Of a stretch of DNA of 52,543 bases, positions 10,122-34,107 are shown one piece after another. The first letter of the stretch is position 1, and the number at the start of each line of letters is the position of its first letter. This stretch comes from Planctomycetota bacterium. GTDB lineage: Bacteria > Planctomycetota > B15-G4 > JADJEK01. The notes beneath the pieces are model-generated. The model was given only the letters and a program-made list of their open reading frames with translations. It was not told the origin of the DNA and did no database searches. Where the stretch lies: contig JBGAIQ010000041.1 in the NCBI GenBank assembly GCA_044225365.1, positions 1 to 52,543 of the forward strand, written 5' to 3'. The position numbers were made by a program, and so were the translations under genes.

Positions 10122-12452
10122 TCAGTTGCCGATGACCCAATGGACGCCATTGGTCTGGGCCGTGTGATAGAAACCCGTGGCTCCCGGATCGGGGAACATC
10201 GCCTGGAGATAGAGATGGAGGCCGCAGATCGCCGCGTCGGGGGGGAGCGGCACGTAGAGATAGAAATTCCCGGCGGCATCGAGTCCGGGGAGATAATAAG
10301 TGGCGAAGGGAGCGACGAGAAGCGTGCCCTTGTCGAATGGGATGGAAGCCGGGGCGAAGCCGACGAACAGAATCGCGGGCGACGCATTCGCGAACCCGTT
10401 CGAGATCGCGAGCAGCACCGTCTCCCCGAGGTGGGGCTCTTGGAACGTGCCGAGATAGGTCGGCCCATTCGTGCCGATCTTTCCGGACCCGTAGTTCGAC
10501 GCTGTCCCGTAACCACTGCAGCTGGGTTTGCCGAAGTACATGTACGCGACGCCCTCTTTCGTCTTCGAGTAGGAGTACTGGGGCGCGCCGATGATCGCGT
10601 CGGAGAATCCATCGCCGTTCACGTCTCCGGCGCTCGCGACCGAGGCGCCGAACGTCGAATCCTTCACGTTGTTGTTTCCGCTCCATAGGAAGTTGGGCGC
10701 GAGTCCCGACGCGTGGCCGAGATAGAGGAAGGCTCGTCCCATCGGGGTGAAGTTCACGGTCTGCTGCTGGGATCCGATGAGGACGTCGTCGAATCCGTCC
10801 CCGTCCGAATCTCCCGCGCTCGCAACGGAGATTCCAAACTCCGCGCCCGATTGATTGCTCTCGGCGGTCCATGAAACGGTCGTCGCGAGACCGGACGCCG
10901 AGCCCAGGTACGCGAACGCTCCGCCCTCGGTGCCTTGGCCGTTCGAGAGGTAAGGGGCTCCCACCACGACGTCCGAATAACCGTCGGAATTCACGTCTCC
11001 CGCCGACGCGACCGAGTAACCGAAGGCTGAAAGGATGACATTGCTCTCGACGGTCCAGACGGCGCTCGCTCCGAGCCCGATCGTGGAACCCTGAAAGACA
11101 TGAGCGCGACCTTCATCGAGTTCGCCGTGATCATGAAAAGGCGCGCCGACGATCACATCCGAGAACCCGTCGCCGTTGACATCGCCCGCGGAAGCGACCG
11201 AATATCCGAAATAAGCATTGGCTTGATCGCTCTCCGCCGACCATGCCGGTGTCGCGGCGAGACCCGTCGGGGAGCCGAGATAGAGGAAGGCCCGACCTTC
11301 GCTCGATTGTCCATTCGTGAACGTATTCGCGCCGACGATCACGTCGTCGTAGCCATCGCCGTTGACGTCTCCCGCGCTCGCCACCGAGCGCCCGAAGCCT
11401 GCTCCCGCCTGTCCGCTGGAAGCAGTCCAGGAAGGAGTCGTGGACGGCCCGAGCGCCGAACCGAGGTAGAGAAAGGCGCGGCCCGCGTCCGGGAACAACG
11501 TGTCGTAATTCGGCGCTCCGACGATCACGTCGTCGTAGCCATCTCCATTCACGTCGCCCGCGGAAGCGACACACCGCCCAAAATCGGAGAGGGTTTGATC
11601 GCCCTTCACCGTCCAGCCCGCGGCGGTCGCGAGTCCGGCTTGCGATCCGAGGTAGACGAAGACACGGCCATCGTCCGTGGCGATATTGGTGAATCCGGGC
11701 GCGCCGACGATGACATCGGAGAATCCGTCGCCGTTGACATCCCCCGCGCTCGCGACGGAGGTGCCGAAGTAGGCCGTGTTCTGATTTCCTTCGACGAACC
11801 AGGTCGGATACGAGAACAAGGGATCGATCGTGATCGGGTACTTCGCATCGCGATCGTTCACGGTGATCCGCACCGCGTTCTTCGAGACGATCATCGCGGC
11901 AGGCAGTTCGCGATGATCGGCATCGAATGCGGCGAGGTGATCGTAACGCAGTGCAGTCGATCCATCGGGCGAAACGAGATCCAAGCCGCCGTCCCGTTCG
12001 TGAGCCACGAGCGATCCGCCCAATGCGAGCTCGATCTCGACTTCGCCGTCGCCTTCGGGTGGAGCCGCGAAGGTGAAGCCCTGCTCGAGTCCCGCTTCGC
12101 CGTTCATGTACCACTCGACGAGGCCGCCGTGTTTTCGCTCGACCCGATCGTCGATCACGCTGAGGGGTGCGTCCGCCACGGGCGCGAGCCGGCCGTGGCG
12201 CCCGGCGCTCGTGAGGGCGATCGACCCGTCGTGGCTTTCGCCGCCGTTCGAAATCGGACGAACGAGCACGCCACCTCCCGCGGGAAAGGTCACGCGGAAG
12301 CGCTGCGCGCGGTTGAACGCTTCGGCCCCGCCATTCGCAGAGACGACGAAGTACTCGTTCCTCGCCTTCTCGGCGACGCCCTCCACGGACGATGGCGGAA
12401 CGCGAGTGATGAGAACGAGCGCCAGGGCGCAAATTCCCGATGGGATGAACAT
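10122..12452 (-). CDS. FG-GAP (integrin-alpha beta-propeller) repeat protein with shared C-terminal module
   Basis: Signal peptide; seven FG.SVASAGDVNGDG..DVIVGAP-type repeats; ~130-aa tail ending YLQAMFPDPGA...TNGVHWVIGN. Confidence 0.92.
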   Translation of the reverse strand: MFIPSGICALALVLITRVPPSSVEGVAEKARNEYFVVSANGGAEAFNRAQRFRVTFPAGGGVLVRPISNGGESHDGSIALTSAGRHGRLAPVADAPLSVIDDRVERKHGGLVEWYMNGEAGLEQGFTFAAPPEGDGEVEIELALGGSLVAHERDGGLDLVSPDGSTALRYDHLAAFDADHRELPAAMIVSKNAVRITVNDRDAKYPITIDPLFSYPTWFVEGNQNTAYFGTSVASAGDVNGDGFSDVIVGAPGFTNIATDDGRVFVYLGSQAGLATAAGWTVKGDQTLSDFGRCVASAGDVNGDGYDDVIVGAPNYDTLFPDAGRAFLYLGSALGPSTTPSWTASSGQAGAGFGRSVASAGDVNGDGYDDVIVGANTFTNGQSSEGRAFLYLGSPTGLAATPAWSAESDQANAYFGYSVASAGDVNGDGFSDVIVGAPFHDHGELDEGRAHVFQGSTIGLGASAVWTVESNVILSAFGYSVASAGDVNSDGYSDVVVGAPYLSNGQGTEGGAFAYLGSASGLATTVSWTAESNQSGAEFGISVASAGDSDGDGFDDVLIGSQQQTVNFTPMGRAFLYLGHASGLAPNFLWSGNNNVKDSTFGASVASAGDVNGDGFSDAIIGAPQYSYSKTKEGVAYMYFGKPSCSGYGTASNYGSGKIGTNGPTYLGTFQEPHLGETVLLAISNGFANASPAILFVGFAPASIPFDKGTLLVAPFATYYLPGLDAAGNFYLYVPLPPDAAICGLHLYLQAMFPDPGATGFYHTAQTNGVHWVIGN

Positions 12453-12509
12453 GTCCTCTTTCTCCCTTCGATCGCGACGAGGCCACTCGCGGCGCCGCGA
12501 AATGTCGAT

Positions 12510-13445
12510 TCAGTAGATCTGCACCACGAGCCCGTTCGAGGCCGCGAACCCGCGAGGCACACCGCCATCGGGAACGAGAGCCTGCATCGTGAATGTGAAG
12601 GTCGTGGAGCCCGGCGGCAGCGCTCCGATCAGCGTGATGTTGCCCGCGCCCGCGCCCACGCCACCGAGCGGCACCGTCACGAAGAACGGCAGGATCGGAG
12701 TGACGAGGAGAGCGCAGCCGGTCCCGCCGATGGCCGACGTGCCTGCCGAGAGTCCGAAGAACAGCGTCGCCGTCGATCCGCCGAGCGCGTGATCGAGCGT
12801 GATCGAGACGTTGTTGCCCGCGATCGCGCAGCCATCGGCATGCAGTTGCGGAACGAATCCGCCGCTGCCCGCGCAGCCCAGGCCGTACGGGCTCGGGATC
12901 TCGGGACAATCGCAGATCAGTTGGAATTTGAAGTGGCGGTCCTGCGACTGCTGCAGATCACCCCACGTCTGGCCCCCGTCGAGCGAGATACGAAACGGTT
13001 GACCGAGATCCGCGCCGGGGTTCGCCATCGGGGATTGCGCGCCGCCGATCGTTCCCCATCCGAGCCAGTAGCTCTTGCCCGGTAGCAGCAGCGGATGGAG
13101 CGAGAAATCCGCGCCCTGAAAGCCGACGGGAAGCACGCACGCGAAATTCGTCGATGTGAGCGGAGCGCCCGGCGCGCCGGCGGCGTCCTCGTAGATGGAG
13201 AGCGTCATCGTCCCGGTCTTCTCGCCCGTGAAGATCTTGGCGCCGCGGATCTGCAGCGTCTCCTGCACCGAGAATTGGATGCCGAACGTCACCGCACCGA
13301 CGGACGAGAAGTCTTCGTAATCAGGGCCGCCGTTCTCGACGTGGCAGACGACCTGTGCGTTCGTGATGTTGGAGGAAGCGAAGAAGAGGACCGCGAGCGA
13401 AGCGAGCCGCGCGAACGGATGAATACGGGTGAGAACATGCGCCAT
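12510..13445 (-). CDS. Secreted protein: choice-of-anchor-R-like passenger domain plus shared C-terminal module
   Basis: Signal peptide LASLAVLFFASSNITNA-Q; SIYEDAAGAPG..L...F...LLPGKSYW pattern; tail ending MQALVPDGG...ASNGLVVQIY. Start may be 13445 or 13463. Confidence 0.75.
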   Translation of the reverse strand: MAHVLTRIHPFARLASLAVLFFASSNITNAQVVCHVENGGPDYEDFSSVGAVTFGIQFSVQETLQIRGAKIFTGEKTGTMTLSIYEDAAGAPGAPLTSTNFACVLPVGFQGADFSLHPLLLPGKSYWLGWGTIGGAQSPMANPGADLGQPFRISLDGGQTWGDLQQSQDRHFKFQLICDCPEIPSPYGLGCAGSGGFVPQLHADGCAIAGNNVSITLDHALGGSTATLFFGLSAGTSAIGGTGCALLVTPILPFFVTVPLGGVGAGAGNITLIGALPPGSTTFTFTMQALVPDGGVPRGFAASNGLVVQIY

Positions 13446-13520
13446 GACGATGACTCCCGGCAATCGCGCGGCGCGAGGAAGTGTACTCGAATCGACCGGG
13501 TGGTGGGGCTGCCAGGGAAA

Positions 13521-13973
13521 TTAGAAAGAGAGGATCTGCTCCACGCCGTCGACGCAGTCGATGTGGAAGGTGAAGCGGTGCGTGAGCTCGCACTCGCGGC
13601 GAGTGCGAGCGAGGTCGCGAGGAAGCACATCCATCAGCGACGCGGCGGCGCGGTAGATCTTGATGCATCCGGATTCGCGTTCGTACACGCTCTCGCACGA
13701 AATGCCTTGGAAGTCGTATTCGACGACGAAGCGAATCGTCGCTCCGGGATCGAGCGCCTGGTAGCTCGTGTTTCGATCGAACCTAAGTTGGGCGAGCCGC
13801 GGGGCGTTCGCACGACTCGTGACGAACACGTAGCGCGCCCGCATCACGCTCGTTCCCCGGTCGCGACTTCGATAGGACGCGAGCCCCGCGTCGATCCGGA
13901 TCTCCACCTCCGCATCCGAGTACGTCGGCTGGGGGAACAGGCGGTGCACGATCTTCGAGTCGCTGCGTCGCAT
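13521..13973 (-). CDS. Hypothetical protein (150 aa)
   Basis: ATG 13973 with GGAG RBS. Fills the gap before the divergent monooxygenase; the upstream part of the listed ORF is antisense to that gene. Confidence 0.55.
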   Translation of the reverse strand: MRRSDSKIVHRLFPQPTYSDAEVEIRIDAGLASYRSRDRGTSVMRARYVFVTSRANAPRLAQLRFDRNTSYQALDPGATIRFVVEYDFQGISCESVYERESGCIKIYRAAASLMDVLPRDLARTRRECELTHRFTFHIDCVDGVEQILSF

Positions 13974-14154
13974 TGGCGTCTCCGGATGATCGCAGAGGAC
14001 GGTGGACCCATCTATCGGACGCGTTCTGCGCGCCACGCGGGAAAAGGCGATCGATTTCTCGAAGCCACCTCCGTTTCTTCGTTTCTTTGGACCGTAGCCC
14101 CCATCGCGATATCGTGGCCCGTGTCGCGAGCGCGACGGCGAGGACGGTGAGTTC

Positions 14155-15330
14155 GTGCGAGCGATCGTGATCGGTGGTGGGATCGGCGGCGTGACCGCGG
14201 CGCTGGCGCTGCGAAAGGCCGGCATCGAAACGCGAGTCTTCGAACGCGCGCCGGGCGCGAGCGAGGTCGGCGCCGGGATCAGCATGTGGGGGAACGCGAT
14301 TCGCGCGCTCGACTCGATCGGAGCGGCGGGTCCCGTCCTCGCGCGCGGCGAGCCGATGCGAATCGCAGAGATGAAGTCGTCGCGCGGGCGCGTGCAATCC
14401 CGAATGGACATGGGCGGCTTCGATCGGGCGCAGGGCGTGACGAGCGTCATCATCCATCGAGCGGAGCTGCTCGACGCGCTCCTCTCGCAGCTCCCGAGCG
14501 ATTGCGTTCGTTTCGGCCACGAACTCGTCGATTGCCAGAATCGCTCGGACTCGGTGGTCGCGAGCTTCGCGAACGGGGTTCGCGAGGAAGCGGACGTACT
14601 GATCGGCGCCGATGGTCTGCGTTCGCGCGTCCGAGAAGTCGTCCATGGGAAACAAGAGCCGCGCTACTCGGGATATACCTGTTTCCGTGGCGTGGTCGAG
14701 TGGAAGGATCACTCGATCGTCGAGCCGGGACACATCAGCGAGTCGTGGGGCGCGGGTTCCCGCTTCGGCGTCATCCGCATGACTCAGAATCGGATCTACT
14801 GGTTCGGGACGTGGAACGCGCCTCCAATGCGCCCCGGCGAGATCCCGAGGAACTCCAAGGACATCGCGGCCCGGATCTTCGCGGAGTATTGGCGACCGAT
14901 CCCCGAGATCATCGCGGCGACCGACGAAGCGCGAGTCTTGCGTCACGACATCGTCGACCGCGAGCCGAGGCGCGGATGGTCGGAGGGCCGCATCACCCTA
15001 CTCGGGGACGCCGCCCATCCCACGACACCGAACGTCGGCCAAGGAGGTTGTCTCGCGATCGAGGACGGTATCGTTCTCGCGCGAGTGCTCGCGAGTTTCG
15101 CGAATCCGATCGACGCTCTCTCGCGGTACGAGTCACTGCGATTCGATCGCTGCGCGCAGATCACGAATTTCTCTTGGCGACTCGGGATCGTCGGGCAATG
15201 GGCGAACCCGCTCGTTCGCGCCCTGCGCGACCTGGTGCTGCGTCACACGCCGCAGTCGGGAATCGAGAAGCAACATGCCCGCTACGTCGGGTTCGACGTC
15301 GTGTCGAGCGTCGATGAGCGACCGACCTGA
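14155..15330 (+). CDS. FAD-dependent monooxygenase (class A flavoprotein hydroxylase)
   Basis: VIGGGIGG, LIGADGLRSRVR, LLGDAAHPTTPNVGQGGCLAIEDG motifs. Confidence 0.93.
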   Translation: MRAIVIGGGIGGVTAALALRKAGIETRVFERAPGASEVGAGISMWGNAIRALDSIGAAGPVLARGEPMRIAEMKSSRGRVQSRMDMGGFDRAQGVTSVIIHRAELLDALLSQLPSDCVRFGHELVDCQNRSDSVVASFANGVREEADVLIGADGLRSRVREVVHGKQEPRYSGYTCFRGVVEWKDHSIVEPGHISESWGAGSRFGVIRMTQNRIYWFGTWNAPPMRPGEIPRNSKDIAARIFAEYWRPIPEIIAATDEARVLRHDIVDREPRRGWSEGRITLLGDAAHPTTPNVGQGGCLAIEDGIVLARVLASFANPIDALSRYESLRFDRCAQITNFSWRLGIVGQWANPLVRALRDLVLRHTPQSGIEKQHARYVGFDVVSSVDERPT

Positions 15331-15397
15331 AGACGATTCGCAAAGTTCGTCGAAGCGAAATGGGAACCGTCGTTCTCGCGCTGCGTAAACAGCGAGT

Positions 15398-15430
15398 TCG
15401 ATCGCAACGATGAAAGCTCGTTGCGATCGA
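15398..15430. terminator. Perfect 13-bp hairpin downstream of the monooxygenase
   Basis: tcgatcgcaacga-tgaaagc-tcgttgcgatcga; no U-tract. Confidence 0.45.
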
Positions 15431-15451
15431 GTCGCAGCGGCAGGTCCACGC

Positions 15452-15480
15452 TTGACGCGCGAGGACTTTGCGGCGACGAT
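15452..15480 (+). promoter_or_regulatory. Putative sigma70-type promoter for the 15601 gene
   Basis: TTGACG-N17-GACGAT, about 120 nt upstream of a TTG start that has an AGGAG RBS. Confidence 0.35.
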
Positions 15481-15600
15481 TACGCCTGCCTGACTCCGAA
15501 ATGGCGCTGAAGCCCCAGGTTACCCTCTCCACACGGGTGGGATACTCATGCGCTCCGAAACCCGAATCACCCCGATCCAGAACTCCGCAGGAGATCACCT

Positions 15601-17235
15601 TTGAAGCTCGCCCGCTCCCTCATCGCCGTCGCGGCGTTTGCCGTCGCGCTGACCGCCGGTAGCGCCTTTGCGCAACCGAACGCAGTCCCGGGTCGTGACC
15701 TGAAACTCAACTCGCTGAACGGCCTGCTCACGATGGGCCGCACGGGCACGTTCCCGAACGGCATGAATGGCTGCGCGGAGTCGACGACCTCCTGCAATCC
15801 CGGAACCAACAACATTCCATGGAACCAGGCGATGGGCGCGACCCATCCCTTCATCTCCTTCATCTTCGCTCGCCAGATGAACGGTCGTCTCGAGCAGATC
15901 AGCGATCGCAGCTACGTGAAGCACGGCTTCTTCGCGACCAATTCCAACGGCTGCGGCGTCTGCCAGAACCCGGGCACGAGCGCGCTCCTCGGGCTCAACT
16001 GCTCCGACACCTACGCGACGTCGAACAATGGCGATAATTTCTGGCTCGCGCCGGCGGAAGAGATCAATCCGTGGACGGGTGCGTGGGTTCCGGCCTGCTC
16101 GCACTTCGACAAGGGTGAGCCGCCGGTTGCGCTCGCGCAGCAGTGCGACGGTATTCGCAGCCTCTCGACTGCGCAGGCGAATGCGCTCGGCCCCGTGGGC
16201 CATCGCGTCCGCGTACCCGACTCGTCGTTCAATGTGACGGGCGCCCAGTTCTTCTATCAGGGCATGTACACGACGCAGGGCGAACCCGAGTCGAACCGCG
16301 GCAACAACATGGGTTGGAAGCCGTTCAACGCGACGTGGACGGGCTCGAGCTGGAGCCTCCAGCAATTCGGTTCGATCACCTACAACTCGGTGCTCTCGGC
16401 CTGGACGGGCGCGACGGTGACGTCGAACACGAACGGCACGGACGACGGTCGCGTCTACGTCGCGGTCAAGATCACCGGCCCGACGAACGGACTCTACCAC
16501 TACGAGTACGCGGTGCACAACCGTGACAATTCGCGCGGCGTGAACGCGTTCCGCCTCCCGGTCTGCTCCGCGGCGCTCGTCGCGAACGCGGGCTTCAAGG
16601 ACACGGACACCGACGCCTCGAACGACTGGACGTTCACGCGCAACCCGACCGAGATCGTCTTCAACACGGCGAACAACCCGCTGAACTGGAATGAGTTCTT
16701 CAACTTCTGGTTCGACAGCGACGCGGGTCCGGTCTCCGCCGCGATCACGCTCGACGAAGCGGCTGCCGGAGCGGGCGCCGCGCAGTTCTCCGTCCCGACG
16801 TCGGCGCCGTCCGAGCTCTACAACGTGAACCTCGGCGGCGGCTGCGGCACCGCAGGCGCTCCGGATCTCCACGCGACGGGTAGCCCCGCGAAGGCGACGC
16901 TCGGCAACGCGACGTTCGGCATCGAGACGACGAACGTCGCTCCCGGCGCCTCGACGCTCCTCTGGGCCAGCGCGCTGGACGGCTCGCTCGCGCTCAACGG
17001 GTCCTGCACGCTCGGCATGAACGTGGCCGGACTCTTCCTCCAGCTCCCGATGACGGCGAACGGCTCGGGCGTCGCGGCGCTCCCGCTCGCGATCCCGGTC
17101 GATCCGACGCTCGAAGGCGTCCACGTCAACTTCGCGACGTGGGAGATCGTCCTCGACGGCGCGGTGGCGCATCAGGCGAATCTGTCGAACACGCTCCGCG
17201 TGCGCATCGGCAATTCGATCCTCGGCTGTCCGTGA
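15601..17235 (+). CDS. Secreted Cys-rich protein with a lysyl-oxidase-like N-domain and shared C-terminal module
   Basis: TTG start, AGGAG RBS, signal peptide ending AFA-Q, strong codon bias. Motifs CNPGT, KHGF, CSDTY, PESNRGNN; tail ending LSNTLRVRIGN. Confidence 0.85.
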   Translation: MKLARSLIAVAAFAVALTAGSAFAQPNAVPGRDLKLNSLNGLLTMGRTGTFPNGMNGCAESTTSCNPGTNNIPWNQAMGATHPFISFIFARQMNGRLEQISDRSYVKHGFFATNSNGCGVCQNPGTSALLGLNCSDTYATSNNGDNFWLAPAEEINPWTGAWVPACSHFDKGEPPVALAQQCDGIRSLSTAQANALGPVGHRVRVPDSSFNVTGAQFFYQGMYTTQGEPESNRGNNMGWKPFNATWTGSSWSLQQFGSITYNSVLSAWTGATVTSNTNGTDDGRVYVAVKITGPTNGLYHYEYAVHNRDNSRGVNAFRLPVCSAALVANAGFKDTDTDASNDWTFTRNPTEIVFNTANNPLNWNEFFNFWFDSDAGPVSAAITLDEAAAGAGAAQFSVPTSAPSELYNVNLGGGCGTAGAPDLHATGSPAKATLGNATFGIETTNVAPGASTLLWASALDGSLALNGSCTLGMNVAGLFLQLPMTANGSGVAALPLAIPVDPTLEGVHVNFATWEIVLDGAVAHQANLSNTLRVRIGNSILGCP

Positions 17236-17270
17236 GGATCGACGGATCGGACGTCGCTCTACCTGATCGG

Positions 17271-18812: not shown

Positions 18813-18884
18813 CGTGTGCAATCTAAATGAGCGGCCCGCTTCCCGAATCCGTCCGCGCATCGAATTCCCTGGCGGCTCTCGAGT

Positions 18885-18927
18885 GCGCCGGGCTCCCGCC
18901 CGGGGAGCGCCGGGCTCCCGCCCGGCA
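18885..18927 (+). repeat. Two tandem REP-like palindromes
   Basis: gcgccgggctcccgcccgg followed by ggagcgccgggctcccgcccggca; same family as the 8659 array. Confidence 0.75.
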
Positions 18928-25358: not shown

Positions 25359-25421
25359 GGACCGCCCGAGCATACCCGCTCGGTCGCCCCGGACCTCACG
25401 GCGTCGGTCGCAGAACCGCGA

Positions 25422-26261: not shown

Positions 26262-26343
26262 CGGACTCTCCCAGAAGGGCAATTACGGCACGCAGGTCGT
26301 ATCCGCCTTCGTACTCCGAGTAACATTCGAGCGGAGGTCCAGC

Positions 26344-27777
26344 ATGCGAGTCCAGCCGCTCTACGTCGCGGGCGCGTCCGTCGAGACCGCGACGACGGAC
26401 ACGATCCGATCGCCCTTCGACGGCGAGGTGGCGGGAATCGTCGCCGTGGGCGGCATCGCCGAAATGGAATCCGTGATCGCGCAGGCTCGCGATCACGTGG
26501 CGTTGGCGAGAGCTCTGCCGCGGCATCGCCGCCACGACGTCCTCGAGAAGGCGGCTCGCAGGATCGAGGAGCAAACGGAGCCTCTCGCGCAGCTCATCAC
26601 GGCGGAGAGCGGAAAGCCGATGCGCTTCGCGCGCGCGGAGGTCGCGCGAGCGGTGACCACGTTCGAACTCGCCGCAGCGAACGCGCTCACCTTCTCGGGA
26701 GAGAGCATCCCATTGGACATCGATCCGCGCGGAGAGGGACGCATCGGACTGTACGACCGCGTCGCTCGCGGCGCGGTCGGCGCGATCGCGCCGTTCAATT
26801 TCCCGCTGAATCTCGTCGCCCACAAGCTCGCGCCCGCGATCGCGGTGGGCGCGCCCGTCGTGCTCAAGCCGCCACCGCAGAGCCCGCTGACGTCGTTCGC
26901 GCTCGCCGACATCCTCTACGAATGCGGTTTGCCGAAACCGATGCTGTCGGTGATCCACTGCAAGCCCGATGTCGCTCAGCGTCTCGCGGAGGACGATCGC
27001 ATCGCGGTGCTGTCGTTCACGGGGTCCGCCGAGGTCGGCTGGAAGCTGAAGTCCCTCGCGGGCAAGAAACAGGTCCTGCTCGAACTCGGCGGCAACGCGC
27101 CGTGCGTCGTCGACGAAGGATGCGACGTCGACGCGATCGCGCCCGCGGTCGCACTCGCGGCGTTCGCCCAGGCCGGGCAAGTCTGCATCAAGGTGCAGCG
27201 CATCTTCGTCCACGATTCGCTCGCCCTGCGGTTCACGGAGCGCTTCGTCGCCGCGTCGAACGCTCTTGCGTGCGGGGATCCGAAGGACGAGCGCACGATC
27301 GTCGGTCCGCTGATCGAGATGAAGCACGTCGACCGCGTTCTCGGTTGGATCGACGAAGCGATGCAGCGCGGTGGCAAGCGGCTCTGCGGCGGCGAACGCG
27401 TCGGCCCGCTGCGTTCGATCGTGACGCCGACCGTGCTCACGGGCGTTCCTGCCGACGCGAAGGTTGCGTGCGAAGAAGTCTTCGGCCCCGTGGCCGTGAT
27501 CGAGCCGTTCGCGACGTTCGAGACCGCGCTCGAGCGATGCAACGCGACTCGCTACGGGCTACAGGCCGGCGTCTTCACGCCGAGTCTCGAGCGAGCGATG
27601 CTCGCGTTCCGCGCACTCGAATACGGCGGCGTGATGATCAACGACGTCCCGACCTACCGCATCGACAACTTCCCGTACGGCGGGACCAAGGATTCGGGTT
27701 TCGGTCGCGAGGGCGTACGCTTCGCGATGGAGGAGATGACGGAGCCGCGCGTGCTCGTGCTTCGCGGCCGGTGTTGA
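26344..27777 (+). CDS. Aldehyde dehydrogenase family protein
   Basis: PFNFP, FTGS, LELGGN, GQVCI, EEVFGPV, FPYGGTKDSGFGREG motifs; ATG 26344 with GGAGG RBS. Confidence 0.95.
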   Translation: MRVQPLYVAGASVETATTDTIRSPFDGEVAGIVAVGGIAEMESVIAQARDHVALARALPRHRRHDVLEKAARRIEEQTEPLAQLITAESGKPMRFARAEVARAVTTFELAAANALTFSGESIPLDIDPRGEGRIGLYDRVARGAVGAIAPFNFPLNLVAHKLAPAIAVGAPVVLKPPPQSPLTSFALADILYECGLPKPMLSVIHCKPDVAQRLAEDDRIAVLSFTGSAEVGWKLKSLAGKKQVLLELGGNAPCVVDEGCDVDAIAPAVALAAFAQAGQVCIKVQRIFVHDSLALRFTERFVAASNALACGDPKDERTIVGPLIEMKHVDRVLGWIDEAMQRGGKRLCGGERVGPLRSIVTPTVLTGVPADAKVACEEVFGPVAVIEPFATFETALERCNATRYGLQAGVFTPSLERAMLAFRALEYGGVMINDVPTYRIDNFPYGGTKDSGFGREGVRFAMEEMTEPRVLVLRGRC

Positions 27778-27846
27778 CGCGCGCTTCGTAGGCTTTTCCG
27801 GGCGGCGCCCTTCGCTCGGTTCCTTCTCTCGTTCGAGTTCCTCGAC

Positions 27847-30800
27847 ATGCATCGTATCGTGCCACTCTTCTCCGACTTCACCGGGCCGATGTCCGTTCAG
27901 CTCGGCGAGATCTGCTTCCGTCGGAGCCGAGTCCTGCAACTCGAGAAGTCGCCCAATTCGATCACGGCAGAGATCGACGAGGGCGGCTCGACGCGCTGTT
28001 CGCTCGAGCGATCGGGTAGCAGCGTGCGTTACGAGTGCACCTGTTTCTTCTACGAGCAGCACGGCAGGATCTGCAAGCACCTCCACGCAATGCTGCTCGC
28101 GGTCGACGCCTCGGGCGGCGCCGACGAGCGTTGGGACTTCCAGGACCTCCTCTCCAAGAGCGGCCACGACCCGATCGAAGAGTTGATCCGCGAGAACGAG
28201 GTCACCGGGCTCACCCGGCAAGACCTCGAACGCTGGAGACGGGAGCCCAGAGTTGCCACCTCCTCCTTTCACCGTCGGCCGCTGCCTCCGCCGCCGCCTC
28301 CCTGGTGGCAGCGGCTCGTCGAGCATCCGAGGGCACCGGACGAGAAATCCGAAACGGACGATCGCGATCGATTCGAACCGGTCTTCCTGCTCGCGATCGC
28401 GTCCGGTTCCGGATACGCGGCCGGAAGCGTCGTTTCGTATCGCTCACTGAAGGTCCGCTTTGCCGTGCGGATCCGCAAGCGGGACGGCAAGCTCGGAAAA
28501 CCTCGACAAGCCTCGCGTGAAGAACGACAACGCTGCGAGGCGAAGGACGAGGGACTCGCCTCCCTCTGCGCCACGCTCGACGGGATGAAGACGGATGCGC
28601 CCTTCACGTACGCATACCGACGTGACGAGATCGCGTGCAGTTGGGATTTGAACGAGCGGAATGCGCGTCATCACATCGAGCGACTCTGCGCGAGCGGCCG
28701 CTTCTTCCACGAACCCGAGGAGTGGAATCCGGACTTCGGTCTCGGTCCTGCGATCTCGTGGAACGGTGCGGTTCCGCACCAGGTCGTCATCGAGTTGAGT
28801 CGCTTCGTCGACGGTCGGCTCTTCGTCGATGTCGAATTCCGCCGCGGCGCGGAGACGATCGATTCGGCCGAAGTCTTTGCGATTACCGACGACGGACTTG
28901 CGCTGGTCGCCGGGTGTTTCATTCGATTCGAGCCGCGGGACATCGCCGCGATGGCGCGGGCCCTTCATCAGCGCGAGGATCTCAACGACCGAATCGTCGC
29001 GACCAACGAAGTGCGGCCGTTCCTGAAGTCGCTGCTCTCGCATCCGGCAGCGCCGATCGTCGAGTATCCCGCCGACCTCGGTCCCACGCAGCTCGATGGC
29101 GTTCTCGAGCCGGAGCTTCGAATCGGAGCAAAGACGAAGGAGAAGGACACGACGCTGACCGCGCGGGTGGTCGCAGCGTATGGAGCTCGCGACGCGGAGC
29201 TGCTGCAAGGCCGCCGCGCGTTCTTCGATGCCGAGGCGTGGAAGCTCGTGCGTCGCGACATCGAGAGCGAGCAGCGGCGTGCCGCGGAGCTTCGCTCGCT
29301 CGGCCTGGAGATCTCGAATGGGTCGGTCCGTTTCGAAGAGGCGCAACTACCCGAGGTCGTGACGGCTCTCACGGCATCGGGTTGGATCGTGCGCGCGGAA
29401 TCGCTGCGCTTGCGGCCGCCGGGCGAGTTGCAGCTCCAAGTGAAATCCAGCGGCATCGACTGGTTCGATCTTCGCGGTGAGATCGAATTCGGAGGCAACA
29501 GCGTCGCGCTCCCGCGTCTCCTCGCGGAGATCGAACGCGGCCGTCGAACGGTCGAGCTCGACGACGGAACGCTCGGCATGATCCCCGAGCGCTGGTTGCG
29601 GGTGCGGCGCGCGCTCCTGGCGCACGGCAAGGCCGAGGAGGGTGCGCTCCGCTTTCGCGCCTCGCAGGCGGCGCTGGTGACAGCCATCCTCGACAACGAC
29701 GAAGGCGCAGCAGACAACACGAACGTGAGCGTGGACGAGACTTTCTCGGCGGTGCGAGAAGCGATTCGGAAGGGATCGCATCCCACGGCGGAGGAGCCAG
29801 CGGAGGGATTCAAGGCGTCGCTGCGGCCCTACCAGAAGGAAGGCCTTGGCTTCCTGCGTCACCTCCTGCGACTTCACATCGGGGGTTGCCTTGCAGACGA
29901 TATGGGACTCGGGAAGACCGTTCAGGTGCTCGCGCTGCTCTACCAGCGCAAGGCGAGCAGGCCGAGTCTCGTCGTCGCGCCGCGATCGGTCGCATTCAAT
30001 TGGCTCGCCGAGGCCGAGCGTTTCGCGCCGGAATTGAAGATCGCCGCATACTTCGGGTCCGGCCGCGAAGAGGCTCACGAGCGCGTGAAGAAGGGCGGAG
30101 TGCTCGTCACCACGTACGGAACGCTGCGCAGCGACGAAGGGCTCCGCAAGATCCCGTTCGATGTCGTCGTGCTCGACGAGGCGCAGGCGATCAAGAACAG
30201 ATCGACGGCGACTGCCGTCGCAGCGCGCGAACTGAAAGCACAGCATCGCATCGCTCTCTCGGGAACGCCCGTCGAGAATCACTTCGGCGAGATCCTGTCG
30301 CTCTTCGAGTTCCTGAACCCGGGACTGTTCGGAGCGACCGCAAAGTTGCGAAAGAGCGACGAGGACGAAGCGGGCCGGGCGCTCGTCACACGCGCGCTCC
30401 GCCCGTTCCTGCTACGTCGAACGAAGGAACAGGTCGCGCCGGATCTGCCGTCGCGCACCGAGCAGACCGTGATCTGCGAGATGGAGGGCGAACAACGCGA
30501 ACTCTACGAGGAGCTCCGCGATCACATCCGGCAAAACATCGTTGCGCGCGTCGAGGCCGTGGGCATGAACGCCGCTCGACTGCAGGTCCTGGAAGCGCTG
30601 CTGCGATTGCGACAGGCGGCATGCCACCCCGGACTCATCGACAAGAAACGCTCCGGACAGTCGTCCGCGAAGCTCGACGCGCTCCTACCGCGACTCGTCG
30701 AGGTCATCGCCGAGGGCCACAAGGCGCTCGTGTTCTCGCAGTTCACGAGCTTCCTCGAACTCTTGAAGCCGCGTCTCGATGACATCGGTCTGAAGTACGA

Positions 30801-31167
30801 ATATCTCGACGGGCAGACACGAGATCGCGAAGCCTGCGTGCGGCGCTTTCAGGAGGACCCGGAATGCCCGCTGTTCCTGATCAGTCTGCGCGCCGGCGGA
30901 CTCGGTCTCAACCTCACGGCCGCGGAATACGTCTTCCTCCTCGACCCGTGGTGGAACCCCGCGGTCGAGGCGCAGGCCGTCGATCGCGCGCACCGCATCG
31001 GCCAGACGAAGCCCGTTTTCGCTTATCGATTGCTGACGAAGAACACGGTCGAAGAGCGCGTTGCGGAGCTGCAGGCGCAGAAGCGCGCACTCTTCGACTC
31101 GCTCATGGCCGACACGGCGACGCTGCGCGACCTCGATCTCGAGGACCTGCGCATGCTGCTCAGTTGA
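27847..31167 (+). CDS. SWIM zinc-finger SNF2-family helicase
   Basis: CTC...CKH SWIM motif; LRPYQ, LADDMGLGKT, DEAQAIKN, SGTPVEN, LVFSQF, DPWWNPAVEAQAVDRAHRIGQ. Confidence 0.95.
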   Translation: MHRIVPLFSDFTGPMSVQLGEICFRRSRVLQLEKSPNSITAEIDEGGSTRCSLERSGSSVRYECTCFFYEQHGRICKHLHAMLLAVDASGGADERWDFQDLLSKSGHDPIEELIRENEVTGLTRQDLERWRREPRVATSSFHRRPLPPPPPPWWQRLVEHPRAPDEKSETDDRDRFEPVFLLAIASGSGYAAGSVVSYRSLKVRFAVRIRKRDGKLGKPRQASREERQRCEAKDEGLASLCATLDGMKTDAPFTYAYRRDEIACSWDLNERNARHHIERLCASGRFFHEPEEWNPDFGLGPAISWNGAVPHQVVIELSRFVDGRLFVDVEFRRGAETIDSAEVFAITDDGLALVAGCFIRFEPRDIAAMARALHQREDLNDRIVATNEVRPFLKSLLSHPAAPIVEYPADLGPTQLDGVLEPELRIGAKTKEKDTTLTARVVAAYGARDAELLQGRRAFFDAEAWKLVRRDIESEQRRAAELRSLGLEISNGSVRFEEAQLPEVVTALTASGWIVRAESLRLRPPGELQLQVKSSGIDWFDLRGEIEFGGNSVALPRLLAEIERGRRTVELDDGTLGMIPERWLRVRRALLAHGKAEEGALRFRASQAALVTAILDNDEGAADNTNVSVDETFSAVREAIRKGSHPTAEEPAEGFKASLRPYQKEGLGFLRHLLRLHIGGCLADDMGLGKTVQVLALLYQRKASRPSLVVAPRSVAFNWLAEAERFAPELKIAAYFGSGREEAHERVKKGGVLVTTYGTLRSDEGLRKIPFDVVVLDEAQAIKNRSTATAVAARELKAQHRIALSGTPVENHFGEILSLFEFLNPGLFGATAKLRKSDEDEAGRALVTRALRPFLLRRTKEQVAPDLPSRTEQTVICEMEGEQRELYEELRDHIRQNIVARVEAVGMNAARLQVLEALLRLRQAACHPGLIDKKRSGQSSAKLDALLPRLVEVIAEGHKALVFSQFTSFLELLKPRLDDIGLKYEYLDGQTRDREACVRRFQEDPECPLFLISLRAGGLGLNLTAAEYVFLLDPWWNPAVEAQAVDRAHRIGQTKPVFAYRLLTKNTVEERVAELQAQKRALFDSLMADTATLRDLDLEDLRMLLS

Positions 31168-31187
31168 CGTCGCCGCTGCGGCGGCGA

Positions 31188-32465
31188 TCAATTCAGGGGA
31201 TAGATGATGAAGTCGTTCAGCTTCTTGATCGACGGCGTCGGCATCGTCGCGAGTGTGTCGTTCAAGAGTTGAAGATGAGAGCGCGTGAGTTGCAGGACGT
31301 GCTCGTTCGGGTGCGTCGTGGCGCCGATGGGGAAGTCGACGGTCGGCGTCGTCGTCATCTCGATGTGCGTTCCGATCACCCAGCACAGGTCCTTGCCGGT
31401 GACGAACGTGAGCAGGCGCTGCATGCTGGCCTTGTAGACGGCCCACTGGCCCTGCGAGTTTGCGCCATTCACGTAGCAACGTCCGGGATACAGGCTGTCG
31501 CCGGTGAACAGTAACGCGGTGCGGCGGTCGTAGATCGCGATGTGCGCCGTCTGGTGTCCGGGGATCGGTATGACGTCGATGATGCGCCCGCCTCCCAGGT
31601 CGTACGACACGATCTGCGTCGGCCAGGTGGTGATGCCCCAGAAGGCTTGCACGGCGCTCAGGCTCGTTCCCACGAGGGTCGTGTTGGGTTTGCCCGCGAA
31701 TTGGGAGTCCCCGGCCACGTGATCGCCGTGCGAATGGAGATGCGCCGCGATCAACTGGATCGAGGTCTTCCCGTTCGCCGCGAGCCAATTGTCGATGACG
31801 CCCTTCACGATGTTGTAGATCGGGATGTTGCCGGCGCCGGTATCGAGCATCAGCACCTTGTCGCCGCCGAAGATCAGCGTGATGAACGGCGCCTCGAAGT
31901 TGGTGCACACCGATTGGCGGAGGATGTAGAGATCCGGGTTGTAGGCGTGGATCTGCATCTGCGGTTCGGACGCGCAATTCGGCAGGCCGTTGATCCACGT
32001 CGAAGGGAACACCCCGCCCTCGGGACCGATCGGAATCGCGCCCCTCAGGCCGTTGCTCGCGCTCGCTCCCTTCGGGTTGCCGGGATCCGCCGTCCACGCC
32101 TGGAAGTAGAGCGAGGCCCCGACCGGCAGACCCTTCGGCAGGATTCCGCTCAGAGTCAGATTGCCGGCGGCGTCGGTGAGGAGCGGACTGATGACCACGT
32201 CGGGCGATGGAACGAGGATGCCGCCGAGCAGCGGCACGTCGATCTCGGAGAGTCCCGTGAAGAGCCACGTCGCCGAGCTGGGTCGCGCGTGCGCGAGTTT
32301 CAGCGTCACGTTCGAATAGGCGAGGAGCGGGCCCTCACCGGTGAGCGCGGGAACCCCGGCGGATCCCGCGAGCGCGTGACCGACATCGGTCCACGGCGAT
32401 GGCCCGTCATCCGCATGGGCGAGCGGGACGAGAGCGAACGACAAGAGTGCGAGCCGTCGAATCAC
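31188..32465 (-). CDS. Exported MBL-fold metallo-hydrolase with the shared module at its N-terminus
   Basis: GTG start, GGAGG RBS, signal peptide ending AHA-D. Motifs DTG, HLHSHGDH, PGH, TGD. Residues ~24-145 contain YFQAWTADPG...SNGL. Confidence 0.9.
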   Translation of the reverse strand: MIRRLALLSFALVPLAHADDGPSPWTDVGHALAGSAGVPALTGEGPLLAYSNVTLKLAHARPSSATWLFTGLSEIDVPLLGGILVPSPDVVISPLLTDAAGNLTLSGILPKGLPVGASLYFQAWTADPGNPKGASASNGLRGAIPIGPEGGVFPSTWINGLPNCASEPQMQIHAYNPDLYILRQSVCTNFEAPFITLIFGGDKVLMLDTGAGNIPIYNIVKGVIDNWLAANGKTSIQLIAAHLHSHGDHVAGDSQFAGKPNTTLVGTSLSAVQAFWGITTWPTQIVSYDLGGGRIIDVIPIPGHQTAHIAIYDRRTALLFTGDSLYPGRCYVNGANSQGQWAVYKASMQRLLTFVTGKDLCWVIGTHIEMTTTPTVDFPIGATTHPNEHVLQLTRSHLQLLNDTLATMPTPSIKKLNDFIIYPLN

Positions 32466-32523
32466 GAAGACCTCCGATCACGAACGAGCCCCCAGGTTAC
32501 CCGAGAACTCGGCGCGCGAGTCC

Positions 32524-32604
32524 GGATCGCCAGGCCGGACCGCCAGGCCGGAGCGCCAGGCTCCGCCTGGCATCTTCGGACCGCCAGGCTCCGCCTGGCA
32601 TCTT
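32524..32604 (+). repeat. REP-like cluster (2 half plus 2 full copies)
   Basis: ggatcgccaggcc, ggaccgccaggcc, ggagcgccaggc-tcc-gcctggcatcttc, ggaccgccaggc-tcc-gcctggcatctt. Confidence 0.85.
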
Positions 32605-32622
32605 ACTCTTCTTCCCCCGCCC

Positions 32623-34107
32623 TCACGGCACGACCTCGATCACGAACGGCTGCGTAAAACAAAGTTCCCCCGCTCGATCGACCACGGCCTGGAGGTAGAA
32701 GATCTCGCCCTTCGAGGTGAATCCGGGAGGCAGCCGAACTCGATCCTCGAACGATCCATCGAGCGCCGCGGGGGATGCGAAGAGGAGGCCGCAGGGCGGG
32801 GCGAGGAACCAGGTCGAACTGCCGCCGAACTTGCCCACGGGGTTGCCCAGCACGTAGTTCAGCAGGTTCGGATTCGACCCCGGAGTGAGAACGAGCGACG
32901 CGCTGAAGAACCACGCGACCTGGATCGGGGTGCCAGGAGGCAGTGTCCGATCGTTGGCGTTCTGCCCTGCCAAAGTCACGTACACGGGATCGCCCGCGCT
33001 TCCCAGTTGGACGGTGGCGCCGAGGTCGGTGAGGTAAGGGCGTGGGAATTTGTTCGGGGAGTCGCGATGAAGATAATGTCCATTGCCCAGCCGCTCGGCG
33101 ATCTTCGCGACGAGGTAAGGATTGTTCTCGATGCGCGAATCGACCCACGGGAATCCATGAGTCGGCCAATTCCAGTCGATGTAACAAAAGCCCTTGATGC
33201 GAGGATTGGACTCCATCATCGCGAAGAACGGCTCGAACCACGTATTCCAATAGTCCTCCGCGGCGGCCGGGGACGGATCGACGATGCCGCCGGGAAAGAC
33301 CGCGCTCGACTCCGAGATCATGATCGGCTTGTGCCAGCCGTTTGCCAACTCCAGCATCGTCGTGAGGGTCTTCGGATAACGATTTCCTCCCTGAGGCAGG
33401 AAGTGCTCGGGGTGGAAGAGGTCGACTCCGACCCAATCGACGTATGCATCGCCGGGGAACCAGTTGCCCACGACTTCCATGCTGGCTCCATCGCCAGGAC
33501 CGCTGCACCAGATGAAGGCGGCGTTCTCCACTCCCGCGGCCCGCAGGCGGTCGACGATCCGCCGATAGGCGTCGATGTAGAAGTGGCCTTTGAGATAATG
33601 AGTCGTGTTCGGCTCGTAACCGGGGCGGACGAAGCACGGATTCTTGAAGTCCTTGATGAGCTTCGCGAGTTCATCGATCACCGGATCGAGCGCTCCCGCA
33701 TTGATCGATGGCTCGCCGAACATGCCCTGATACAACTCGAAGTTGACGCTGATCTCCGGCATTGCATTCTTCGACTGAGCCTGCTCCAACCAGCCCTTCA
33801 CTGGGTTCACCGTGAGATCCACCATCTCCTGGACTGTGAGCGGGAATGGATACTTCGTCACGTATTGCTTCGTGTAACGACCCCAGAGAGGGAAGTACAT
33901 TTTCGTAAGCAATGGGTGAAGTGCATCGGAACCCGACGCGAGGTTCAGAGCATCGGAGTAATTCGATAGCGTCGGCTTCTCCTCGAGCGCGCCATGCAGG
34001 ATCTTCCCATCGGCTGGCTCGAATTTCGCTCCGTCGTGCGCGACAGCACACTCGGTCCCGTTGACGATCGCGCAGACGAGGAGCGCGACTCCAATTCTCG
34101 ATCCCAT
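32623..34107 (-). CDS. Glycoside hydrolase family 26 protein with C-terminal beta-rich module
   Basis: Signal peptide; RPGYEPN (acid/base), WFPGDAYVDWVGVD, KPIMISES (nucleophile); tail LPP...FYLQAVVD; GAGGAG RBS. Confidence 0.85.
   Translation of the reverse strand: MGSRIGVALLVCAIVNGTECAVAHDGAKFEPADGKILHGALEEKPTLSNYSDALNLASGSDALHPLLTKMYFPLWGRYTKQYVTKYPFPLTVQEMVDLTVNPVKGWLEQAQSKNAMPEISVNFELYQGMFGEPSINAGALDPVIDELAKLIKDFKNPCFVRPGYEPNTTHYLKGHFYIDAYRRIVDRLRAAGVENAAFIWCSGPGDGASMEVVGNWFPGDAYVDWVGVDLFHPEHFLPQGGNRYPKTLTTMLELANGWHKPIMISESSAVFPGGIVDPSPAAAEDYWNTWFEPFFAMMESNPRIKGFCYIDWNWPTHGFPWVDSRIENNPYLVAKIAERLGNGHYLHRDSPNKFPRPYLTDLGATVQLGSAGDPVYVTLAGQNANDRTLPPGTPIQVAWFFSASLVLTPGSNPNLLNYVLGNPVGKFGGSSTWFLAPPCGLLFASPAALDGSFEDRVRLPPGFTSKGEIFYLQAVVDRAGELCFTQPFVIEVVP

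What the first reader, a model, noticed from the sequence alone, without database searches (positions are those of the whole stretch)
10122..33040. Shared ~125-aa module on unrelated exported proteins: candidate uncharacterised sorting or surface-anchoring domain
Seen: signal-peptide proteins with different cargo carry the same beta-rich module. FG-GAP protein (~10122-10520): YGSGKIG..LFVG..TLLVAP..DAAGN..LPP..YLQA..DPG..TNG. 12510 protein (~12510-12910): YGLGCAG..LFFG..ALLVTP..GAGN..LPP..MQA..DGG..SNG. 15601 protein (~16815-17235): LGGGCG..P.L..G..LAIP..LSNT. MBL hydrolase (~32030-32400): LFTG..ILVPSP..DAAGN..LPK..YFQA..DPG..SNG. GH26 (~32623-33040), more weakly: LPP..FYLQA..D. Known: a recurring terminal domain on diverse cargo is the signature of T9SS CTD, PEP-CTERM and similar systems; this module has no TM helix, basic tail or T9SS pattern. 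The 12510 passenger resembles choice-of-anchor domains, which are defined by swapping sorting signals. Inference: a lineage-specific export or anchoring signal; four to five copies in 52 kb suggest many more genome-wide.
Basis: partly seen in the sequence, partly recalled or inferred. Interest (0 to 1): 0.85.

Follow-up and report, generated by a model that had tools for sequence, protein, structure and literature searches.

The report
Planctomycete surface-protein tag domain, uncharacterised
Four exported proteins in this window share a roughly 125-residue beta-sandwich domain that belongs to a very large family with no database name, found mainly in Planctomycetota, and that looks like a surface-anchoring or sorting tag on many unrelated enzymes and adhesin-like proteins.

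Summary
Four of the five claimed copies are real homologues. These are the FG-GAP protein, the 12510 protein, the 15601 protein and the MBL hydrolase. A 301-sequence HMM containing no window sequence scores them at E = 3e-24, 6e-31, 2e-18 and 3e-46. The GH26 tail is only marginal (hhalign probability 2-3%, shuffle p about 0.02).

No Pfam, NCBIfam or PDB-sequence match was found. AlphaFold2 gives a confident all-beta model (pLDDT 91.6), and Foldseek returns only generic Ig-like matches.

The family is very large: 20,078 clusters at 50% identity. Named records are almost all Planctomycetota. The domain occurs once per protein and ends at the C-terminus in 162 of 163 and 69 of 70 proteins. It sits behind more than 20 unrelated cargo families.

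It is not strictly C-terminal. In the MBL family it follows the signal peptide in 74 of the 120 best homologues, and some relatives have a dockerin-like segment at that place.

My best reading is a position-tolerant envelope-docking tag. A secretion signal like the T9SS C-terminal domain is the main rival. Function is untested.

The parts
10122..12452 (-). FG-GAP repeat protein (776 aa, P0001) with a signal-peptide-like N-terminus; this is the cargo gene
   Evidence: Translation. Pfam FG-GAP E=3.6e-60, 7 stretches.
10131..10508 (-). Module copy 1, at the extreme C-terminus of the FG-GAP protein
   Evidence: HMMs without window sequences: E=4.8e-23 and 3.2e-24. The match covers ORF residues 668-793 of 795.
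12510..13463 (-). 317-aa exported protein (P0002); its passenger weakly resembles DUF4082 / choice-of-anchor R, below threshold
   Evidence: Translation; family scans. Orthologues are P0008 (97% identity to the module query) and P0009 (63%).
12516..12905 (-). Module copy 2, at the extreme C-terminus; this is the sequence modelled by AlphaFold2
   Evidence: E=2.8e-34 and 5.5e-31. Model pLDDT 91.6, pTM 0.85, eight strands.
15601..17235 (+). 544-aa exported protein (P0003) whose roughly 400-aa passenger has no family
   Evidence: Translation. No Pfam or NCBIfam family. Homologues P0010-P0012 and P0014 have the same architecture.
16822..17208 (+). Module copy 3, a divergent subtype at the C-terminus followed by a short ..GCP tail
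   Evidence: E=2.4e-8 and 2.3e-18. Leave-one-out E=2.3e-3.
31188..32465 (-). Metallo-beta-lactamase-fold hydrolase (425 aa, P0004)
   Evidence: Translation. Lactamase_B E=2.3e-8. 1414 homologues at E<=1e-5.
32028..32402 (-). Module copy 4, N-terminal (residues 22-146), directly after the signal peptide
   Evidence: E=7.5e-29, 2.9e-46 and 4.3e-41 for P0170, the window's own record. The same placement is seen in 74 of the 120 best homologues.
32623..34107 (-). GH26-like glycoside hydrolase (494 aa, P0005)
   Evidence: Translation. Glyco_hydro_26 E=1.4e-6.
32626..33045 (-). GH26 C-terminal region; a doubtful, at best very diverged, copy of the module
   Evidence: Not hit by any profile that leaves it out. 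hhalign probability 3% and 1.9%. 39 of 2000 shuffles score as well. No homologue of this region was found. The single-sequence AlphaFold2 model is unusable, pLDDT 36.

Best explanation
The window encodes four members of a very large domain family that has no entry in the libraries searched here and is found mainly in Planctomycetota. The domain is about 125 residues long, is predicted to be an eight-stranded beta-sandwich, and occurs once per protein. It is attached to Sec-exported proteins of many unrelated kinds, including FG-GAP and other beta-propellers, peptidases, glycosidases, lectin-like domains and an MBL hydrolase.

The most likely mechanism has three steps. First, the protein is exported by Sec and its signal peptide is cleaved. 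Signal peptides were judged by eye and with a crude hydrophobicity rule. Second, the module folds on its own. This step is predicted. Third, the module docks non-covalently onto a shared component of the cell envelope, either a receptor protein or a glycan, so that diverse enzymes and adhesin-like proteins stay on the cell surface. This step is inferred.

On this reading the module plays the role that dockerin or SLH modules play elsewhere. It tolerates an N-terminal or internal position, so a free C-terminus is not required. The nearly invariant positions are G11, G16, G19, P21, G83, Q104, D109, [ST]119 and N120 of the consensus. They are candidates for the fold core and the recognition surface, which is also an inference.
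For: Homology of the four window copies.

No known family: Pfam and NCBIfam down to E=10; PDB sequences, best E=0.28.

Independent globular fold: pLDDT 91.6, pTM 0.85. Foldseek finds only generic Ig-like/E-set matches, TM 0.38-0.49 against PDB, and 0 matches at E<=1e-3 against BFVD.

Family size: 20,078 clusters at E<=1e-3 and 8,226 at E<=1e-10.

Tag-like behaviour:
- 0 of 163 proteins carry two copies.
- The domain ends within 9 residues of the C-terminus in 162 of 163 proteins, and exactly at the end in 145.
- It ends within 2 residues of the C-terminus in 69 of 70 module ORFs in 54 genome loci.
- More than 20 unrelated Pfam cargo families are attached. 45 of 89 proteins and 38 of 64 proteins had at least one Pfam family, none of them on the module.
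- 113 of 163 proteins have a hydrophobic N-terminus. Most of the rest look like fragments or miscalled starts.

Taxonomy: 49 of 54 loci are from MAGs labelled Planctomycetota or Phycisphaer*. The nearest Atlas clusters are Planctomycetota. The family is present in the cultured Engelhardtia mirabilis.

Position tolerance and swapping: in the MBL family, 74 of the 120 best homologues have the module between the signal peptide and the core. At the same place P0288 has Dockerin_1 above the Pfam cutoff (27.2 vs 22.9 bits), and P0284 and P0286 have it below the cutoff. About 20 homologues have nothing there. P0097, an unrelated protein, also carries the module N-terminally. L041 has it between a subtilase domain and an FGE-sulfatase domain.

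Gene clustering: 12 of 54 loci hold 2-3 module genes within about 6 kb, as in this window.
Against: - No receptor, machinery or localisation data exist.
- No conserved neighbour gene was found; the most widespread neighbour family occurs in 4 of 54 loci.
- The near-absolute C-terminal placement with a zero-residue tail is stricter than is usual for mere binding domains. It is what a C-terminal secretion signal would show.
- The dockerin swap rests on one family, with only one Pfam hit above the cutoff.
- Dockerin function in Planctomycetota is itself unproven; this is my own knowledge.
- Signal peptides were judged by eye and by a crude hydrophobicity rule, not by a dedicated predictor.
- Taxonomy rests on records that carry names and on a narrow search motif. 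The 20,078 clusters carry no taxonomy.
Confidence: 0.45

Rival explanations
1. The module is a C-terminal secretion or sorting signal comparable to the T9SS C-terminal domain. An unidentified planctomycetal outer-membrane translocon would recognise the folded module, carry the cargo across the outer membrane, and then remove the module or link it to a surface anchor.
For: - Extreme C-terminal placement in 162 of 163 proteins and 69 of 70 ORFs.
- One copy per protein: 0 of 163 proteins have two.
- Very diverse cargo of the kinds that T9SS and PEP-CTERM systems carry, such as C25 and S8 peptidases, SBBP/DUF7948, FG-GAP and BNR.
- Restricted mainly to one phylum.
- The genes are dispersed with no linked partner, as is true of T9SS cargo genes.
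Against: - The module is N-terminal in 74 of the 120 best MBL homologues and in P0097.
- It is internal in L041.
- There is no sequence match to T9SS CTD models.
- No T9SS CTD structure appears among the listed PDB Foldseek matches.
- No machinery was identified, and no cleavage data exist.
Confidence: 0.25
2. The module is an ordinary accessory beta-sandwich with no role in sorting. It could be a ligand- or substrate-binding domain of the CBM or lectin type, or a structural or stabilising Ig-like domain.
For: - The fold is a generic Ig-like/E-set sandwich. The best PDB matches include an AA10 chitin-binding domain and ML/NPC2 lipid-binding domains, at TM 0.38-0.49.
- Position is tolerated: N-terminal, internal or C-terminal.
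- Conserved polar residues Q104, D109, [ST]119 and N120 could form a ligand site.
Against: - Most cargo is not carbohydrate-active.
- The module is never found in tandem: 0 of 163 proteins. CBM, PKD and Big-type domains are often repeated; that comparison is from my own knowledge.
- A zero-residue C-terminal tail in 145 of 163 proteins is unusually strict.
- The structural matches are too weak to assign any ligand.
Confidence: 0.2
3. The module is a homo-oligomerisation domain that assembles the cargo proteins into surface arrays or multimers.
For: No direct evidence. It is compatible with one copy per protein and with diverse cargo.
Against: Nothing specific. No tool result bears on it.
Confidence: 0.05

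Closest known systems
T9SS C-terminal domain (type A Por_Secre_tail, type B) of Bacteroidota
   Same: A globular beta-sandwich, present once per protein, almost always at the extreme C-terminus of Sec-exported proteins. It is attached to very diverse cargo, is restricted largely to one phylum, and its cargo genes are dispersed around the genome.
   Different: There is no sequence match. This module is longer, about 125 aa with eight predicted strands; I recall about 70-100 aa and seven strands for the T9SS CTD. It also works from an N-terminal or internal position. Its hosts are Planctomycetota, where I know of no T9SS (recalled, not tested).
Dockerin type I (Pfam PF00404)
   Same: A small cargo-borne docking module on many exported enzymes. 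In close MBL homologues a dockerin-like segment occupies exactly the place of this module.
   Different: Dockerin is a duplicated calcium-binding EF-hand-like helical module of about 60-70 aa. This module is all-beta and about 125 aa. No cohesin-like partner is known for it.
Short C-terminal sorting signals (PEP-CTERM/exosortase, LPXTG/sortase, GlyGly-CTERM, MYXO-CTERM)
   Same: They mark diverse exported proteins of one lineage at the C-terminus. Passenger families of the 'choice-of-anchor' kind recur with them. I saw only the abstract of 10.1101/2023.06.07.544157, in the listing.
   Different: Those signals consist of a motif, a TM helix and a basic tail, about 20-35 aa in all. This module is a folded 125-aa domain with no hydrophobic helix or basic tail.
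SLH and other non-covalent cell-wall-binding modules; PPC (pre-peptidase C-terminal) domain
   Same: These are position-tolerant accessory modules that keep secreted enzymes on the envelope (SLH) or that sit at the C-terminus of secreted enzymes (PPC).
   Different: There is no sequence match to either. SLH usually occurs as three repeats, and PPC is largely confined to peptidases (both recalled). This module is single-copy and its cargo is mostly not peptidases.

Membership tests
T9SS C-terminal sorting domain (TIGR04183 / PF18962; type B TIGR04131) | Match to the family HMMs | tested here: not met
   No hit at E<=1 for the five window proteins. No hit at E<=10 for the 19 aligned modules.
T9SS C-terminal sorting domain | Obligate extreme C-terminal position | tested here: not met
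   The module is C-terminal in 162 of 163 proteins and 69 of 70 ORFs. It is N-terminal in the window's MBL, in 74 of its 120 best homologues and in P0097. It is internal in L041.
T9SS C-terminal sorting domain | Fold similarity to solved CTD structures | tested here: inconclusive
   No T9SS CTD entry appears among the listed PDB Foldseek matches. All matches are generic Ig-like folds with TM below 0.5.
T9SS C-terminal sorting domain | Presence of T9SS machinery (PorK/L/M/N, SprA, PorU/V) in the same genome | not testable with these tools
   Only a 52.5-kb window and roughly 6-kb loci were available. None of the Pfam results for window genes shows such components.
Dockerin type I (PF00404) | Duplicated calcium-binding loop-helix segments; match to PF00404 | tested here: not met
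   No Pfam hit. The model is all-beta.
PEP-CTERM / LPXTG / other short sorting signals | Signature motif followed by a TM helix and a basic tail at the C-terminus | tested here: not met
   The proteins end with the last beta-strand of the module..VVQIY..WVIGN..ILGCP. No NCBIfam sorting-signal model hit.
Choice-of-anchor R (NF041539) / DUF4082, for the passenger of the 12510 protein | Score above the curated cutoff | tested here: not met
   choice_anch_R 16.7 bits against a cutoff of 30. DUF4082 20.8 against 28.4. The orthologue P0009 scores 28.2 against 28.4.
The shared module family itself (no name in the libraries searched) | Significant match to a profile that contains no window sequence | tested here: met
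   Met for four window segments. Not met for the GH26 tail.
Carbohydrate-binding module | Match to a known CBM family, or predominant attachment to carbohydrate-active enzymes | tested here: not met
   No CBM Pfam hit. The cargo is mainly propellers, FG-GAP proteins and peptidases. Ligand binding itself cannot be tested here.

The most novel reading that the evidence does not exclude
The module is the cargo signal of a so far unrecognised protein-sorting or secretion pathway specific to Planctomycetota. It would be a functional counterpart of the T9SS C-terminal domain, built on an unrelated fold, with its own outer-membrane translocon or attachment enzyme. Thousands of planctomycetal surface proteins would then be identifiable from sequence alone.
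Probability: 0.25. Interest if true: 0.85.

Novelty: new variant of a known kind. Interest (0 to 1): 0.6.

Why it matters
How Planctomycetota place proteins on or beyond their outer membrane is, to my knowledge, poorly understood. This domain marks a very large set of exported enzymes and adhesin-like proteins (20,078 clusters at 50% identity), yet it has no Pfam, NCBIfam or solved-structure counterpart.

If it is an anchor or sorting tag, three things follow:
- It gives a sequence-based catalogue of the planctomycetal surface proteome.
- It gives a handle for finding the receptor or machinery, by pull-down or by phylogenetic profiling.
- It could serve as a display tag in these organisms.

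A cultured carrier, Engelhardtia mirabilis, makes the question testable. Even if the function turns out to be mundane, the family deserves a curated domain model.

Tried and rejected
- Homodimer test of the module with complex prediction: no verdict, score 0.00. I do not use it as evidence either way.
- Single-sequence AlphaFold2 model of the GH26 C-terminal region: pLDDT 36, unusable.
- Search for homologues of the GH26 C-terminal region: only the query itself among 563 candidates, so no profile could be built.
- The search for related loci with the 19-sequence alignment: failed because the alignment had no conserved 7-10-column stretch. I repeated it with a narrower six-sequence alignment. 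That scan therefore samples only modules with the motif G[LC][ADG]GSGGFVP.
- Foldseek against BFVD: 0 matches at E<=1e-3.
- Conserved-neighbour analysis in the 54 loci: the largest neighbour family is present in only 4 loci, so there is no candidate partner.
- ESM Atlas: the nearest clusters are unnamed Planctomycetota 'hypothetical protein' clusters. The nearest named ones (CHRD 0.81, Spond_N 0.75) are at chance level.
- The listing of cluster members for 10 proteins: only the Engelhardtia MBL carries a name.
- Literature (listings and abstracts only, term search inside 10.1101/817700 with 0 occurrences): nothing describing this domain. This does not prove it is unpublished.
- An 8-stranded outer-membrane beta-barrel anchor was considered because the strands are long. 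I rejected it because Foldseek returns sandwiches, not OmpX/OmpA-type barrels, and the C-terminal residue is not consistently aromatic.
- ORF 13521-14453 (-) looks like a non-coding shadow frame and was dropped.
- Not checked: metagenome contigs and viral contigs (closed), whole genomes, and any supplementary files.


Full report
**1. What is in the window**

The flagged region holds five genes with signal-peptide-like N-termini:
- an FG-GAP protein (10122-12452, minus strand, 776 aa)
- a 317-aa protein (12510-13463, minus strand)
- a 544-aa protein (15601-17235, plus strand)
- an MBL-fold hydrolase (31188-32465, minus strand, 425 aa)
- a GH26-like hydrolase (32623-34107, minus strand, 494 aa)

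Pfam and NCBIfam name only the passengers: FG-GAP, Lactamase_B, Glyco_hydro_26, and sub-threshold DUF4082 / choice_anch_R. They name nothing over the shared segment. The rest of the window is ordinary chromosomal DNA of about 65% G+C. In the FG-GAP, 12510 and 15601 proteins the segment is C-terminal. In the MBL protein it covers residues 22-146, directly after the signal peptide, so it is N-terminal.

**2. Is the similarity real?**

Pairwise BLASTP links 12510 to MBL (E=1.3e-12), FG-GAP to MBL (7e-7), FG-GAP to 12510 (2e-3) and 12510 to 15601 (9e-3). GH26 reaches only 0.04, over 36 residues.

Leave-one-out HMMs against the 429 six-frame ORFs of the window recover each of the first four segments, at 2.3e-5, 1.6e-12, 2.3e-3 and 7.6e-10. 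They do not recover GH26.

A profile of 12 database C-termini with no window sequence gives 2.8e-34 (12510), 7.5e-29 (MBL), 4.8e-23 (FG-GAP) and 2.4e-8 (15601). The best noise hit is 0.63. A 301-sequence profile gives 5.5e-31, 2.9e-46, 3.2e-24 and 2.3e-18, with noise at 1.3. That profile includes close orthologues of the 12510 and MBL proteins, so it is not fully independent for those two.

For GH26, hhalign gives probability 3% and 1.9%. Its 5.8-bit score is reached by 39 of 2000 shuffles. No homologue of that region was found, and a single-sequence fold failed. By eye it is collinear with the consensus (DLG..G.AG.P, FGG...FLAPP, LPPG....YLQAVVD, final P). I therefore call it a possible but unproven diverged copy.

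There are no further copies in the window.

**3. The family**

A word-seeded search with the five-segment profile found 17 non-window proteins that carry the module.

A 19-sequence alignment without GH26 (A2) was searched exhaustively against 1.84 billion cluster representatives. It found 20,078 clusters at E<=1e-3 and 8,226 at E<=1e-10.

I examined 163 proteins: the top 150, the hits, and the window's own 15601 protein.
- The domain ends within 9 residues of the C-terminus in 162, and exactly at the end in 145.
- One protein, P0097, carries it at residues 25-147 after a signal peptide.
- None has two copies.
- 113 have a hydrophobic N-terminal stretch. Most of the other 50 have odd starts or look like fragments.

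The scan of genome contigs used a narrow motif, G[LC][ADG]GSGGFVP. It returned 54 loci from 31 assemblies. Of these, 49 loci are labelled Planctomycetota or Phycisphaer*, 4 are labelled only 'bacterium', and 1 is a 2.8-kb contig labelled Candidatus Aquidulcis. Up to 6 loci came from one assembly.

In those loci, 70 ORFs carry the module. In 69 of them it is at the extreme C-terminus. Twelve of the 54 loci hold 2-3 module genes within about 6 kb, which mirrors the clustering in this window.

The nearest ESM Atlas clusters are unnamed and come from Planctomycetota.

**4. Cargo**

Pfam scans covered 89 of the 121 proteins of at least 280 aa (limited by the residue cap) and 64 of the 70 locus ORFs. 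For the second scan I left out five short 5'-open fragments and one near-duplicate. At least one Pfam family was found in 45 of 89 and 38 of 64 proteins.

The families found include:
- FG-GAP variants, SBBP, DUF7948, DUF6923/DUF4394, DUF642 and DUF7453
- WD40, YNCE, PD40 and LDL-receptor-B propellers
- Sortilin/BNR
- Peptidase_C25, Peptidase_S8 and Peptidase_M43
- CarboxypepD_reg, Malectin, Laminin_G_3, PA-IL and Golvesin_C
- PKD and Beta_helix
- GSDH, SGL, Exo_endo_phos and Beta-lactamase2

No family maps onto the module, and no dockerin or other known anchor co-occurs with it.

**5. Structure**

AlphaFold2 with A2 as the alignment gives a confident all-beta domain: pLDDT 91.6, pTM 0.85, two short strands and six long ones. 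Foldseek finds only generic Ig-like/E-set sandwiches. Against PDB the matches have TM 0.38-0.49 and include an AA10 chitin-binding domain, superoxide reductase and NPC2/ML. Against BFVD there are no matches at E<=1e-3. A profile search of PDB sequences finds nothing better than E=0.28.

The consensus is W..LG.GLAG..G.P.L.G.G.L ... PF.GGTLVP.P ... Q.W..DP.AP.G..ASNGL....P. The nearly invariant positions are G11, G16, G19, P21, L23, G83, Q104, D109, [ST]119 and N120. That sample is weighted by 73 MBL orthologues.

**6. Position tolerance and the dockerin swap**

The MBL protein has 1414 homologues at E<=1e-5. I classified the 120 best, which include the window's own record.
- 74 carry the module between the signal peptide and the MBL core. 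Among the listed homologues is the protein of the cultured Engelhardtia mirabilis, whose sequence shows the module motifs after the signal peptide.
- About 20 are MBL only.
- About 14 are tandem MBLs.
- Several Phycisphaerae-labelled proteins of about 390 aa have a dockerin-like repeat at exactly that position.

Of 13 proteins checked with Pfam, Dockerin_1 passes the cutoff in P0288 (27.2 vs 22.9 bits) and is below the cutoff in P0284 and P0286. P0279 has only sub-threshold EF-hand matches. P0276 looks dockerin-like by eye only.

In L041 the module lies between a subtilase domain and an FGE-sulfatase domain.

**7. Interpretation**

The following combination is the signature of a cargo tag: one copy per protein, an almost invariably terminal position, a signal peptide, highly diverse passengers, restriction mainly to one phylum, and dispersed genes without a linked partner.

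Two readings compete. The N-terminal and internal cases, and the replacement by a dockerin-like module in close MBL homologues, favour a position-tolerant docking or anchoring domain. I give that reading 0.45. The strictness of the C-terminal placement keeps a secretion signal of the T9SS-CTD type alive, at 0.25. A plain ligand-binding or structural accessory domain gets 0.2, and oligomerisation 0.05.

Nothing here shows localisation, cleavage, a receptor or a machinery.

**8. Comparison and novelty**

The module matches no model of the T9SS CTD, dockerin, short sorting signals, SLH, PPC or CBMs. It fails the defining features I could test for each of them (see Membership tests).

Literature searches returned nothing on this domain (listings and abstracts only, a term search with 0 occurrences). 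That does not prove it is unpublished.

I rate it a new variant of a known kind: a cargo-borne sorting or anchoring domain on an unrelated fold in a new phylum.

**9. What stayed unchecked**

- Whole-genome copy numbers
- Taxonomy of the 20,078 clusters
- The closed collections metagenome contigs and viral contigs
- Dedicated signal-peptide prediction
- Supplementary files of any paper

Noticed in passing
window 8659-8888 (inside ORF 8397-10079, minus strand): A 69-nt unit is repeated 3.3 times in tandem at 97% identity. Each unit folds into a long hairpin (-33 kcal/mol, z = -2.6). In the 560-aa ORF it reads as repeated '..CRAEPGAPRTATLQRGFFLPKSI..'. The real gene probably ends before the repeat, which looks like a REP-like intergenic repeat.
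   Followed up: partly
window 37909-46728 (+): A giant 2939-aa ORF with two GH94 supersandwich stretches, a GH94 catalytic domain and a glucoamylase-like domain. This resembles a cyclic beta-1,2-glucan synthase or phosphorylase-type protein.
   Followed up: no
proteins P0276, P0284, P0288 (homologues of the window's MBL, 31188-32465): The dockerin-bearing MBL homologues also have a short C-terminal extension, with a Cys-rich motif (..C[CV].RP..F[ED][YF]R..), that the module-bearing homologues lack.
   Followed up: no
L041 1366-4173 (+): Subtilase S8 (residues 278-534), then the module (542-673), then an FGE-sulfatase domain (692-930), all in one ORF. This is the only internal placement of the module that I saw.
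   Followed up: yes
window 15601-16810 (+): The roughly 400-aa passenger of the 15601 protein has no Pfam or NCBIfam family. It is conserved with the same architecture in at least four database proteins, P0010-P0012 and P0014.
   Followed up: partly
window 13521-14453 (-): A 310-aa ORF with high GC3 but an Arg/Pro/Ser-rich, non-protein-like translation. It overlaps the start of the FAD-binding monooxygenase-like gene on the other strand (14155-15330). It is probably a shadow frame.
   Followed up: partly
window 50001-52543: G+C drops to 0.59, from about 0.65-0.69 elsewhere, and GC skew rises to +0.09. No tRNA gene is present anywhere in the window.
   Followed up: no
window 3912-7070 (-) and 34356-37451 (-): Two other large exported-looking proteins lack the module: CarboxypepD_reg repeats (1052 aa) and a Sortilin/BNR protein (1031 aa). 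Elsewhere the same cargo types do carry it, for example P0019, P0063 and P0018.
   Followed up: partly
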